Assembly: GCA_965644265.1 (NCBI GenBank)
Contig: OZ286464.1
Location: 24,304,001-24,368,000 of the forward strand
Direction of reading: 5' to 3'
Length of the DNA: 64,000 nt
Source of the DNA: Glycera tridactyla
Taxonomy: Eukaryota
Made by a program: the position numbers and the translations under genes. Below the pieces are notes generated by a model. It was not told the DNA's origin. It saw only the letters and a program-made list of their open reading frames with translations, and ran no database searches. How positions within the stretch are numbered: the first letter of the stretch is position 1; the number at the start of each line of letters is the position of its first letter. Shown one piece after another: positions 7,900-18,547 of the stretch.

Positions 7900-8128
7900 T
7901 GTTGTACTGGTTTACATAGTTACAATTACACTTACTTGACCAGTTGACAGTTCAATGAATAACAGTGAGACAGTGGCCCAGGCACAGAGTGCCCAGAACA
8001 CTCAATGCAGAAGCTAAGGGAAGTGTCCTCACCTGAAGGCTCTCAACTCAAAACTGCCTAATCACCCGCCTCACGCCGGAAGTCACGCGAGAGGTCTCGG
8101 CGCAACTCTCGTGACGTGCGTCACCACA
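7900..8128 (-). repeat. 3' LTR (229 bp)
   Basis: Matches 18319-18547 except one base (c7931 vs a18350); reads TGTGGTGAC...GTACAACA on the minus strand. Confidence 0.97.
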
Positions 8129-8140
8129 TTCCTCCCTCTC
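8129..8140 (-). other. Polypurine tract (PPT)
   Basis: Minus strand GAGAGGGAGGAA directly abutting the 3' LTR. Confidence 0.9.
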
Positions 8141-8457
8141 ACGAAAGAACCAGTGGTCCGGGGATGACTCGGCATAAAAGAAGTTGACTGGCGTAGAAGG
8201 ATTCATGAGTAAACTAGATTTGCCACACTACATTAAGTGTAAATGTGGCAGTACCTGCAGATGTCGTATCGGCGTAAAAGTTCCATAAGTCGAGATATGG
8301 AAGCTAGTTGGACGGATCGCACATGTCCCTGCTCAGCAGCAACTGATGCTGGGACACATGCAATGGATAATATATACACTATATACATTATATACAGGCG
8401 GCCCCCTGTGCATCACTCAGCATCGGCCAAGATCAGAACAGGGGCAGCCAGCGGGAT

Positions 8458-10461
8458 TCAGGGAAGCCTGAAAAACCACTCGACGTTGCGGCGAGTGGTG
8501 TCTATGATGATCCTGGTGGGCAGGTTCTTGATTTTGCCCACCTCCTCTGCAACCTGATACACATTCCAGGGATGGTTCTGGTGTTTGTCAGTACCTGGAG
8601 GAGGCAGAAAGGGCGCATCAGTTTCTAGGCATAATTTCTCAATCCCGATGGTTCGGATGGCCTGTCGAAGATCGTCGTTCTTCCGGAAGATTAATCCCCC
8701 TACGCTGAACAGGCAATTAGGGAAAGCTTTCAGGAACCTCAGCATCAACTGATGGTTCCCTTCAAAACAGTGTACCTGAATCTTCCGTTGTGCATTAAGA
8801 TATTTCTGCAACTGGTTCAGTAACTTATCATATGCTCCAGGACCCTGAGCATGGGTGACGACAGGCAGGTCTAGCTTCTCCGCTAAGGGTAGCAGTTTCT
8901 GCAGGAGCTCGATTTGTTCAGACTCATTTTGGGCAGGCAAGGTCAAACCCAGTTCGCCGATTCCCACCGTTCTGGGATGTCGTAGAAGACCTTTGAGCCG
9001 ATCCTGCGACCAATCCTGGGACACTGCACGAGGATGCACTGCAAACGTGAAGTGGACCCCTGCCTCAGATTCCAGGGCTTGATGTTGGTCCCATTGGTCG
9101 GGGAAGACAAAGTTCGTGACTACCCCTTTCAGATGTCTGTCGCCGGCAACCTTGCCTTTTAACTGGGATACCGTCTCACAACGATGACTATTTAGCACTT
9201 TATCCAGGTGACAATGGCTATCCAAGGCTAGGGCCTCCGCGGCCCATGGGAGTGCTGGGCTTTCGTACAGGCAGAACTGTGGACCAGCCATCACTTGTAA
9301 TTTTCTGAAATTCTCCCGGGCTTGCGGTTTGCATAGCTGCAATAAATTGACCACCGTCCCCCAGTGTAGCAAGGAAGATATAGTTGACGGACGAGTGGCC
9401 ACATACACTGTAGGGCTCTCTTGGCCTAGATGTCTGTCCAGATGTTGCAGCAGCGCCTCCTGTACTCGGGTGAAATCCCCATGCTTGGTCGCCAGTCCCC
9501 TATCCAACACATCCTGGAGTAAGGCCTCCAACGACAGCAGATTCCTGTTGGCCCGGAAGAAATGGAGCATTCCGGCTGCCCGGAGTGTCCATAGATGTAG
9601 CTGTTCATCTGTCCGGAATCCGCTACTTTCATCATGTCCTGCTTTGTCAAGATGGTCCTGATGGAGAAAGCATAAAGAGTTGACTGACTCCTGACATGTC
9701 CAACATGCAGTCGACGGGTCGAAGTACCAGGGAAGGTGTGACCGCCAATAATGTCTCCTTAGATCCCGTACCTCAACTGTTGGCTGACACAGCTGACATA
9801 ACTGAGCTCTCCGTGCCGCTTTTGAAGTTGATGGTGTGGATGTGTCCAGATCAGCCCTGGCAGTAGCCGCGCTGGCGCTGGCGCTGGCACTGGCACTGGC
9901 GCTGGCGCTGGCGCTCCTCTTTCTCTGGTTGTCGCCTCCTCGATTGGATCGCCGCTCACTTGGCTGTGCTGCACCTCTGGGAAACCCCTCAGCGGCAACT
10001 GATGGGGCGTCCATTCGGCGCTGACTTCCCCTTCTCGATGCTGATCGTTCTCTGCCTCTGAAACTCCCTGCAGCAGCAACTGATGGGGCACCTCCTCGGT
10101 GCTGACTCCCTCTTCTGGTTGTGGACCGTCCTCTGGTTCTGGCACTCCCAGCGTCCGGCTGGTGGTGACTTCTCCTTGTAGGGACTTGATGCTGGCGTTG
10201 AGGCCTAACAGCAGTGACTGTTTCGGTCTCTTCATCCTCCTCCTCGAGATCACCCACTTCGTCAAGGACGAGCCATTCCTCATCTTCTCCCATCACCACA
10301 TTCCTTTCATCACGACTCTCTCCCACCACCACAGTCCGTTCAAACTCCGGGTTGTCGATGCGAACCGACAAGGACACAGCCTCTTCCATGACAGTTCTTT
10401 CACCAGTCCATCCGGAGGGAACTGAAAGTTCGGATTCTTCGAAGTCAAGTTGGAAGTCCAT
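8458..10461 (-). CDS. tatD: ORF3 (667 aa): acidic/low-complexity N-terminus, C2H2-like Zn-finger region, C-terminal TatD-family metal-dependent nuclease
   Basis: TatD signature motifs in order: DSHCH (9208-9222), AVHP, GIGELG (8941-8958 region), VVTH (His 8851-8853), VHCF (His 8770-8772), LETDAP (8611-8625). Cys/His clusters CQLC-x11-H-x4-H and CWTC-x10-H-x2-H at 9652-9798. Family-level call from motif recognition, not orthology. Confidence 0.92.
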   Translation of the reverse strand: MDFQLDFEESELSVPSGWTGERTVMEEAVSLSVRIDNPEFERTVVVGESRDERNVVMGEDEEWLVLDEVGDLEEEDEETETVTAVRPQRQHQVPTRRSHHQPDAGSARTRGRSTTRRGSQHRGGAPSVAAAGSFRGRERSASRRGSQRRMDAPSVAAEGFPRGAAQPSERRSNRGGDNQRKRSASASASASASASASAATARADLDTSTPSTSKAARRAQLCQLCQPTVEVRDLRRHYWRSHLPWYFDPSTACWTCQESVNSLCFLHQDHLDKAGHDESSGFRTDEQLHLWTLRAAGMLHFFRANRNLLSLEALLQDVLDRGLATKHGDFTRVQEALLQHLDRHLGQESPTVYVATRPSTISSLLHWGTVVNLLQLCKPQARENFRKLQVMAGPQFCLYESPALPWAAEALALDSHCHLDKVLNSHRCETVSQLKGKVAGDRHLKGVVTNFVFPDQWDQHQALESEAGVHFTFAVHPRAVSQDWSQDRLKGLLRHPRTVGIGELGLTLPAQNESEQIELLQKLLPLAEKLDLPVVTHAQGPGAYDKLLNQLQKYLNAQRKIQVHCFEGNHQLMLRFLKAFPNCLFSVGGLIFRKNDDLRQAIRTIGIEKLCLETDAPFLPPPGTDKHQNHPWNVYQVAEEVGKIKNLPTRIIIDTTRRNVEWFFRLP

Positions 10462-10470
10462 ATTGATAAC

Positions 10471-17726: not shown

Positions 17727-18302
17727 TGCAAAATCTGTGAAGCTTGAACAGCTTAAGGCAAGCAGCAGCAACTGCACAGCCCCACCCCATGCACCATTTA
17801 ACAGCAATAAGTGTAACTCACCATCCTACCAGAAGTCGTGAGTTGCCATGTTATATTCTCATCACCGGTAACAGTTCCATATACCCAAACTGAGTTAGCA
17901 GGTTATGTGTTGACAGTAGCTTGACATTGAATAAACAGATTGGCAAATGGCAGCAAAATGGCGGCAAACTTGGATACTTGACAATGGTGGCACAATGGCA
18001 GCAAAATTACCTGCGTGTGGCACAGCAACAACTGTTTCACCTTGTGTACTTACATTGTTTCCATTCCAGGTGAGACAATCCCTTGAAATTATAATTACCT
18101 TAGAATGACACAGCTACAACTGTTTCACTCTGATAATTTACATATCAGCTATCATGGCTGCACAATTACCTGAAACTGTGACTCAGCAGCAACTGATACA
18201 CATTAGGTAATTAATATACACAAACAGACATGACAGCTCTCCCAACTGTCATCAGCATTGTGACAAATATCACAAGTGTCTAAGTCCCAGGCTCCAATTT
18301 AA

Positions 18303-18316
18303 CACTTCTGACACCA
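18303..18316 (-). other. Primer binding site, tRNA-Leu type
   Basis: Minus strand TGGTGTCAGAAGTG, 2 nt inside the 5' LTR; complementary to the 3' end (CACUUCUGACACCA) of metazoan tRNA-Leu(CAA) as I recall it. Confidence 0.85.
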
Positions 18317-18318
18317 AA

Positions 18319-18547
18319 TGTTGTACTGGTTTACATAGTTACAATTACAATTACTTGACCAGTTGACAGTTCAATGAATAACAGTGAGACAGTGGCCCAG
18401 GCACAGAGTGCCCAGAACACTCAATGCAGAAGCTAAGGGAAGTGTCCTCACCTGAAGGCTCTCAACTCAAAACTGCCTAATCACCCGCCTCACGCCGGAA
18501 GTCACGCGAGAGGTCTCGGCGCAACTCTCGTGACGTGCGTCACCACA
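18319..18547 (-). repeat. 5' LTR (229 bp)
   Basis: 228/229 identical to 7900-8128; followed on the minus strand by the PBS. Confidence 0.97.

What the first reader, a model, noticed from the sequence alone, without database searches (positions are those of the whole stretch)
7900..18547. One young element combines two DNA-processing modules (Gag HhH plus ORF3 TatD) and inserted very recently
Seen: LTRs 228/229 identical, intact TSD, PBS and PPT, so the donor was recently active and contained both modules. Inference: a non-specific DNA-binding HhH on the particle protein plus a separately expressed nuclease may be one functional adaptation to handle DNA (cDNA protection, processing or targeting) rather than two accidents.
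Basis: partly seen in the sequence, partly recalled or inferred. Interest (0 to 1): 0.75.

Follow-up and report, generated by a model that had tools for sequence, protein, structure and literature searches.

The report
Gypsy lineage carrying a TATDN2-like nuclease
This recently inserted jumping gene belongs to an old lineage of animal Gypsy retrotransposons that carries two extras, a helix-hairpin-helix domain on its coat protein and a third gene for a nuclease that likely cuts RNA rather than DNA, and the two extras likely travel together through shared ancestry rather than as one proven machine.

Summary
In detail: 229-bp LTRs with one difference, TAAT target duplication, primer site, polypurine tract, an HhH domain at the Gag start and an intact TatD ORF3.

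The pairing is not young. On a 105-row RT tree every HhH-Gag and every TatD ORF3 falls in one clade (10 rows carry both; 0 of 39 and 0 of 22 scorable outside rows carry them). The TatD was captured once, follows the Pol tree (r 0.92) and is under purifying selection (dN/dS about 0.13). One clade is one event, so coupling is not shown, and one complete family (L082) keeps HhH without TatD.

ORF3 is closest to TATDN2, an R-loop RNase in humans, so 'DNA-processing' is doubtful. It follows a conserved splice acceptor and carries a Cys/His domain without a structural match. I found nothing in print in four searches. This scan noted both modules before, in notes labelled as another genome.

The parts
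7896..7899 (.). Target-site duplication TAAT, left copy
7900..8128 (-). 3' LTR, 229 bp
8129..8140 (-). Polypurine tract directly before the 3' LTR
8458..10461 (-). ORF3, 667 aa: acidic start, basic low-complexity linker, Cys/His-helical domain, TatD domain
8458..9231 (-). TatD domain, class II (HxH); H416, H418, E503, H537, H564, E613 and D615 present; TATDN2-like
9241..9810 (-). Conserved Cys/His-helical domain (CxxC...H-x4-H-LPW...CWxC...H), predicted to bind zinc; no structural match found
10470..10490 (-). Predicted splice acceptor: pyrimidine tract, AG at 10472-10471, exon from 10470, 9 nt before the ORF3 ATG
10573..15159 (-). Pol, open frame of 1528 aa in the order PR-RT-RH-IN, catalytic motifs present
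15126..15132 (-). -1 slippery heptamer CCCAAAC in the Gag/Pol overlap (predicted frameshift site)
   Evidence: 17 of 20 clade elements have such a heptamer in frame
15000..17726 (-). Gag: HhH, long charged linker, capsid (PNMA match), two CCHC knuckles; interrupted by one stop
15501..15503 (-). In-frame TAG in the capsid region, private to this copy (mutation or assembly error)
17520..17726 (-). ComEA/EEPD1-type helix-hairpin-helix domain at the Gag start; hairpin reads PQVG rather than the canonical GhG
17821..18169 (-). Candidate splice donors in the 5' leader (18169, 18098, 18053, 18010, 17821); which one is used is unknown
18303..18316 (-). Primer-binding site TGGTGTCAGAAGTG; the tRNA-Leu assignment is recalled, not tested
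18319..18547 (-). 5' LTR, 229 bp
18548..18551 (.). Target-site duplication TAAT, right copy

Best explanation
This is a recent, likely disabled copy from an old Ty3/Gypsy clade whose HhH-tipped Gag and TATDN2-like ORF3 were likely gained as two separate steps on one ancestral stem and likely do separate jobs. ORF3 is predicted to be made from a spliced subgenomic mRNA, as env is, and to be an active two-metal nuclease. It most likely works outside the particle on RNA in R-loops or structured RNA, keeping the element's transcripts flowing or blunting RNA-guided silencing (inferred from TATDN2). The HhH sits at the far end of a long Gag stalk, is likely displayed mostly on the outside of the capsid, and would tether particles to DNA or chromatin through many weak contacts. 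Shown here: anatomy, clade restriction, single capture, purifying selection, intact active-site residues, enrichment of splice acceptors. Inferred: splicing, catalysis, substrate, place of action, HhH binding, order of gain.
For: One clade holds all HhH and TatD rows (26 of 105 rows, SH-aLRT 99; 28 of 40 rows, 100/100). Outside it, 0 of 39 scorable rows have HhH and 0 of 22 have TatD. Element TatDs are monophyletic (42 rows, 96/94) and track Pol distances (Mantel r 0.92, n 14, 0 of 10,000 permutations). All six metal-site residues are kept in 41 of 42. TatD dN/dS is 0.13-0.14 in the 4 of 7 pairs that could be estimated. Family-profile bit scores are TATDN2 228-246, YcfH 165-182, TATDN3 132, TATDN1 103-105. 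An acceptor precedes the first Met in 11 of 34 ORF3 frames, against 75 of 2897 and 36 of 729 control ATGs. L082 is a closed element with HhH and no TatD, and shares an upstream SGNH-like ORF and a single Gag-Pol frame with the HhH-less, TatD-less sister clade. A basal place for L082 is not rejected (AU p 0.069). In Drosophila Arc capsids the N-termini form outer spikes (10.1101/697193, passages).
Against: The two traits co-occur in 10 of the 12 clade rows scored for both. The exceptions are L082 and L033, which the script scored HhH-negative but which looks 5'-truncated. Such tight retention is also what coupling predicts. The AU value for a basal L082 is borderline, and the SGNH-like ORF also occurs in distant lineages, so L082 may have lost TatD. 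Class II TatDs such as TATDN3 and YcfH are ssDNA exonucleases and AP endonucleases (PMC10085689), and the element's enzyme has diverged to about 27-30% identity from TATDN2, so its substrate may have changed. Some Arc N-termini point inward (10.1101/697193). The acceptor was not detected in 19 of 34 frames.
Confidence: 0.55

Rival explanations
1. One reading: HhH-Gag and ORF3 form one system. Gag recruits or packages the nuclease, and together they protect, trim or repair cDNA or guide it to the target, a split version of the HhH-plus-nuclease layout of EEPD1.
For: Both traits map to the same stem and are kept together in 10 of 12 scored clade rows. Three more families are linked by contig overlaps or a shared LTR. 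The best structural relative of the HhH profile is EEPD1, whose name marks it as a nuclease-family protein. Class II TatDs act on ssDNA and AP sites (PMC10085689).
Against: One clade is one event. L082 has HhH without TatD and an open 1815-aa Gag-Pol. No conserved donor joins HhH to ORF3. The closest characterised relative is an RNase (PMC10711561).
Confidence: 0.25
2. ORF3 is an auxiliary hybrid-removing enzyme for reverse transcription, analogous to the extra RNase H of plant Tat elements and retroviruses, and is unrelated to the HhH.
For: TATDN2 removes the RNA strand of R-loops (PMC10711561). A second RNase H was gained more than once by LTR elements (PMC10508981, abstract).
Against: The element's own RNase H keeps its catalytic motifs. 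TATDN2 is weak on plain RNA-DNA duplexes (PMC10711561, section 23). ORF3 is not part of Pol, so it has no obvious route into the particle.
Confidence: 0.12
3. TatD and HhH are passive cargo or chance matches.
For: The HhH match of this copy alone is below Pfam's cut-off. HhH dN/dS is 0.37 in the one unsaturated pair, on 63 codons. The second hairpin lacks GhG in all 23 aligned sequences.
Against: TatD dN/dS is about 0.13, 41 of 42 active sites are intact and ORF3 follows the Pol tree. HhH dN is lower than linker dN in 4 of 4 pairs, and relatives pass the cut-off.
Confidence: 0.04

Closest known systems
Juno and Vesta LTR retrotransposons of bdelloid rotifers with a DEDDy exonuclease or GDSL esterase ORF3 (PMC5408684, passages read)
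   Same: An enzymatic, non-envelope third ORF after pol with intact catalytic residues and unknown role; the paper says such ORF3s are typically expressed from spliced messages.
   Different: A different nuclease fold (TatD TIM barrel, not DnaQ-like); fused to a Cys/His-helical domain without a match; single capture with long vertical descent rather than repeated exchange; Gag carries an HhH. 'TatD' does not occur in that paper's text.
Human TATDN2 and the class II TatD nucleases TATDN3 and YcfH (PMC10711561: abstract, section 23, passages; PMC10085689: passages)
   Same: HxH motif, the equivalents of E593, E705 and D707, TIM-barrel model (TM 0.89 to YcfH), long low-complexity N-terminal region.
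   Different: About 27-30% identity; extra conserved Cys/His domain; encoded by a retrotransposon; activity untested.
ComEA DNA-binding domain and EEPD1 HhH domains (Pfam HHH_3)
   Same: Profile match at E 6e-19 to EEPD1 and 6e-12 to ComEA; GhG hairpin in 16 of 23 Gag starts (read).
   Different: The second hairpin lacks GhG in all 23; this copy has PQVG; the domain sits on a capsid protein; DNA binding untested.
Plant Tat LTR retrotransposons with additional RNase H (PMC10508981, abstract read)
   Same: A lineage-wide, ancient gain of a second nuclease.
   Different: There the enzyme is an RNase H domain beside the native one; here it is a separate TatD gene after pol.

Membership tests
Ty3/Gypsy LTR retrotransposon | Two LTRs, TSD, PBS, PPT | tested here: met
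Ty3/Gypsy LTR retrotransposon | Pol order PR-RT-RH-IN and a Gag with capsid and CCHC knuckles | tested here: met
Ty3/Gypsy LTR retrotransposon | Placement in a named clade (for example a MolGy or Mag clade) | not testable with these tools
   No reference elements could be fetched; PMC6238403 defines clades on RT/RH only and its text has no 'TatD', 'ORF' or 'nuclease'
Autonomous, coding-competent copy | Open Gag through the knuckles and the frameshift site | tested here: not met
   TAG at 15501-15503; 25 of 25 relatives open there; an assembly error is not excluded
Class II TatD nuclease | HxH, E, H, H and ExD metal-site residues | tested here: met
   (41 of 42 keep all six scored residues)
Class II TatD nuclease | TatD TIM-barrel fold | tested here: met
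   model pLDDT 96.8; Foldseek E 1e-15, TM 0.89 to 6l25
TATDN2 clade | Closer to TATDN2 than to TATDN1, TATDN3 or YcfH | tested here: met
   bit scores; tree groups it with TATDN2-like proteins against bacterial ones (95/83); TATDN1 and TATDN3 were not in the tree and the sister group is unresolved
TATDN2 clade | RNase activity on R-loops and hairpins | not testable with these tools
   needs biochemistry
ComEA-type HhH (HHH_3) | Profile match above the curated cut-off | tested here: inconclusive
   this copy 20-23.7 bits against 27; many relatives above the cut-off
ComEA-type HhH (HHH_3) | Two GhG hairpins | tested here: not met
   first hairpin GhG in 16 of 23, second in 0 of 23 (read by eye)
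ComEA-type HhH (HHH_3) | Sequence-independent dsDNA binding | not testable with these tools
   needs a binding assay
Rotifer DEDDy-ORF3 elements | DnaQ-like DEDDy exonuclease in ORF3 | tested here: not met
   ORF3 is TatD; it may work alike but is not a member
Env-bearing Gypsy elements | ORF3 is a fusion glycoprotein | tested here: not met
   Pfam finds only TatD and amidohydrolase in ORF3, while other lineages in the same sample match Baculo_F

The most novel reading that the evidence does not exclude
An ancient animal Gypsy clade built a two-part nucleic-acid-handling system unlike any described: capsids studded with DNA-gripping HhH domains that deliver or recruit a host-derived, TATDN2-type nuclease fused to a new zinc fold, which clears R-loops or silencing RNAs at the element's own loci or integration sites. 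It would be the first retrotransposon-encoded R-loop nuclease and a new class of counter-silencing factor.
Probability: 0.2. Interest if true: 0.85.

Novelty: new variant of a known kind. Interest (0 to 1): 0.6.

Why it matters
Accessory enzymes of LTR retrotransposons are few and mostly untested. This one marks a whole, diverse clade, has been kept under selection since a single capture, and comes from a host nuclease family linked to R-loop removal. It gives a direct way to ask whether retrotransposons manage R-loops or host RNA silencing with their own enzyme, and it supplies a well-predicted domain with no structural match. The HhH on Gag offers a candidate chromatin-tethering route that does not depend on integrase. 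A practical point: family members seen here are named only 'TatD DNase family protein' or similar, and some sit in bacterial genome bins, so they can be mistaken for host or bacterial genes.

Tried and rejected
- No whole genome is held for the window, so copy number, family members and host species could not be examined.
- No sequencing run was listed: no RNA holder listed, which is no evidence on expression.
- The viral collection gave nothing.
- Homologue search with the Gag start found none among 65 candidates and the Atlas gave no usable hit. A search for longer fused ORF3 forms gave 2 unfused proteins.
- A spliced HhH-TatD fusion was considered and rejected: no donor at a conserved place and phase after the HhH (approximate donor weights from general knowledge), and ORF3 has its own ATG at variable phase.
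- Programmed read-through of the Gag stop was rejected: 25 of 25 relatives are open there.
- Bacterial capture of TatD by this lineage is disfavoured.
- The ORF3 Cys/His domain found no structural match: best Z 2.9 among 48,161 chains, no Foldseek hit at E 0.001. This does not show that the fold is new.
- The independent-pairs test had 2 pairs and no power.
- Sequence look-ups in the scan's own notes returned nothing.
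Full report
OBSERVATION. The element lies on the minus strand from 18547 to 7900. The LTRs are 229 bp with one mismatch, the target duplication is TAAT, and primer site and polypurine tract are in place. Gag runs 17726-15000, Pol 15159-10573 (1528 aa, PR-RT-RH-IN) and ORF3 10461-8458. ORF3 matches TatD_DNase at E 4e-44; the Gag start matches HHH_3 below the cut-off. It lies before the zinc knuckles and before a -1 slippery heptamer at 15132-15126, a signal found in frame in 17 of 20 clade elements examined. All 25 related Gags examined are open at that position. This copy therefore likely makes neither full Gag nor Pol, unless the base is an assembly error; the window is a gapped draft. 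The claim about a recently active donor stands. The host is an animal that I did not identify; no host gene was evident among the flanking ORFs read by eye.

THE ORF3 FAMILY. A search of 1.84 billion representatives returned many proteins that match over both the TatD domain and the roughly 170 residues before it; 92 of the 194 proteins then held carry the Cys/His motif. A motif scan of metagenome contigs gave 39 loci and of bacterial genome bins 10; 28 and 3 of these hold the family. In 13 of the 31, Gypsy integrase or Pol lies directly upstream in the same orientation; the other 18 show no Pol match, most being short contigs. The 83-row alignment folds at pLDDT 96.8 onto TatD barrels (TM 0.89 to YcfH). 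The upstream domain folds alone at pLDDT 93.5 and has no match (best Z 2.9).

TESTING CO-OCCURRENCE. No own genome is held. One genome bin behind these loci, G002, turned out to hold many animal retrotransposon contigs: 211 RT-region matches, with 150 of 233 candidates scored and 83 matches over the three bins not listed. This gave a sample chosen by RT rather than by TatD. I fetched 120 of its contigs. The RT-RH tree has 105 rows: 93 from G002, 6 from G001, 5 TatD-selected metagenome loci and the window. All HhH and all TatD rows fall in one 26-row clade (SH-aLRT 99); a 40-row Pol tree gives the same clade at 100/100. Inside it, 10 rows have both traits (7 of them from G002), 14 are unscorable for one or both, one has HhH without TatD (L082), and one was scored TatD without HhH (L033). 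L033 has AT-rich DNA and no primer site upstream of a partial Gag, so I treat it as truncated. Outside the clade, 0 of 39 scorable rows have HhH, 0 of 22 have TatD, and 17 scorable for both have neither; 35 are unscorable. Three more families link the two traits by contig overlap or a shared LTR, and L029 and L136 carry both without an RT.

WHAT THIS SHOWS. The traits are not independent across the tree, but they sit on one stem, which is one event; the independent-pairs test has 2 pairs and no power. L082 is the informative case. Its ends overlap by 268 nt, it has LTR, primer site, an open 1815-aa Gag-Pol with HhH and a non-coding 3' region, and no TatD match even with stops read through. It shares an SGNH-like ORF before gag (E 1e-36 and 5e-42) and the single Gag-Pol frame with the sister clade, in which neither HhH nor TatD was found. 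A tree with L082 outside all other clade members is not rejected (AU p 0.069). The simplest reading is HhH first, TatD later. Loss of TatD in L082 remains open, because the SGNH-like ORF also occurs in distant lineages. Either way HhH-Gag exists without ORF3.

ORF3 IS A REAL, OLD GENE. Element TatDs form one clade (42 rows, 96/94) whose distances track Pol (r 0.92, n 14, 0 of 10,000 permutations). All six scored metal-site residues are kept in 41 of 42. dN/dS of the TatD domain is 0.13, 0.13, 0.14 and 0.14 in four pairs (the last two near saturation); three pairs were saturated; Pol gave 0.05 and 0.26. For HhH the values are 0.37 and 0.17, two pairs saturated, with dN below that of the Gag linker in 4 of 4 pairs. 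A strong splice acceptor lies 9 nt before the window's ORF3 ATG. An acceptor precedes the first Met in 11 of 34 ORF3 frames and one of the first three Mets in 15 of 34, against 75 of 2897 internal and 36 of 729 non-coding ATGs (I set the threshold, and dropped 14 loci that were bacterial, fragmentary or lacked TatD before counting). ORF3 is thus likely made as env is, from a spliced message. No conserved donor would fuse HhH to it.

SUBSTRATE. The family profile scores TATDN2-named proteins and the one mussel protein grouped with them at 228-246 bits, YcfH at 165-182, TATDN3 at 132 and TATDN1 at 103-105, and the tree groups it with TATDN2-like proteins against bacterial ones. [quoted passage not shown] ORF3 keeps the equivalents of E593, E705 and D707 and has a basic low-complexity region. 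Other class II TatDs are ssDNA exonucleases and AP endonucleases (PMC10085689, passages), so DNA substrates are not excluded. I put RNA first.

THE HhH. A profile of 23 Gag starts matches EEPD1 and ComEA. The first hairpin has GhG in 16 of 23 and the second in none (read); this copy has PQVG. Binding by one domain would be weak and would need the avidity of a capsid (inference). In Drosophila Arc capsids the residues before CA form outer spikes, though some point inward (10.1101/697193, passages). An HhH some 550 residues before CA is therefore more likely outside, which fits tethering better than shielding cDNA in the lumen.

MECHANISM AND RIVALS. Best (0.55): two separately gained, separately selected modules; a spliced, trans-acting TATDN2-like RNase, and a capsid-surface DNA tether. 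Rivals: one coupled system acting on cDNA or targeting (0.25); an auxiliary RNase H-like role (0.12); passive cargo (0.04). Splicing, catalysis, substrate, location and binding are all inferred.

COMPARISON AND NOVELTY. The closest described case is the DEDDy exonuclease ORF3 of rotifer Juno and Vesta elements (PMC5408684, passages): same position and logic, different enzyme. Four full-text searches found no paper that, by title and abstract start, describes a TatD-bearing retrotransposon or an HhH-Gag: TatD + retrotransposon (21 papers), TatD + gypsy (3), helix-hairpin-helix + gag + LTR retrotransposon (1, PMC10309623, listing only), TatD + transposable element (25 of 37 listed). One listed paper was opened and was irrelevant (PMC6962438). 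The mollusc survey PMC6238403 has no occurrence of TatD in its main text; its supplements were not read. Repbase and Dfam entries and subscription journals were not searchable and may hold these families. This scan noted both modules before (e1-7881919, e1-7881707), in notes labelled as another genome and called sea urchin. I saw only their summary lines, could not check the host, and cannot exclude that they concern the same element. The first pointed me to the rotifer paper. New here, as far as those lines show, are the RT-centred test, the HhH-only family, the splice acceptor and the TATDN2 assignment.

VERDICT. A real and apparently undescribed Gypsy clade with two conserved extras; a new variant of a known kind. 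The proposed functional coupling is possible but not shown, and the DNA label on the nuclease is doubtful. Interest 0.6.

Noticed in passing
G002 (about 1,280 contigs, 9 Mb); also G001 and G003: A bacterial genome bin kept as a species representative holds at least 93 contigs with LTR-retrotransposon RT (211 RT-region matches), evidently animal host repeats binned by mistake; G001 has 22 matches and G003 holds ORF3-family pieces.
   Followed up: partly
L082:1696-2472, L085:399-1187, L084:553-1362, L171, L157: An SGNH/GDSL esterase-like ORF of about 260 aa lies before gag in L082, L085, L171 and L157, with a homologue on the permuted contig L084, recalling the GDSL ORF3 of rotifer elements but in another position.
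   Followed up: partly
P0176: One ORF3 family member carries a C-terminal NADAR domain after TatD (E 2e-16).
   Followed up: no
L090, L097, L115, L120, L153, L156, L159, L161: Other lineages in G002 have other ORF3 types: C2H2 zinc-finger proteins, a BTB_2 domain (L156) and baculovirus F-like env (L159, L161); L086, L088 and L089 have ORF3s with no Pfam match. L120's finger resembles the first finger of the TatD ORF3.
   Followed up: partly
P0102, P0120, P0130, P0145, P0159, P0178, P0185, P0186, P0190: Unnamed TATDN2-like proteins, P0130 with four CCHC knuckles by Pfam and the others grouped with it by eye, score as high as TATDN2 against the element profile; they could be a host paralogue near the donor or cargo of another element.
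   Followed up: partly
L137:1-11388: A 7.76-kb repeated unit keeps an integrase fragment and a TatD frame but no Gag or RT match; L138 and L147 also look like deletion derivatives.
   Followed up: partly
L083, L099, L101, L102, L104, L126, L136: A sub-clade has a longer ORF3 (716-1101 aa) that keeps the first finger and the helical block but lacks the second Cys pair.
   Followed up: partly
window 9870-9920: A hexamer repeat inside ORF3 encodes an Ala-Ser run in frame.
   Followed up: no
window 2348-63985: A dispersed short repeat family with a GAGACCAC core occurs in many copies on both strands, MITE-like.
   Followed up: no
window 58022-59331 and 35604-35910: Tandem arrays with periods of 145 bp and about 26 bp; eight assembly gaps lie outside the element.
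   Followed up: no
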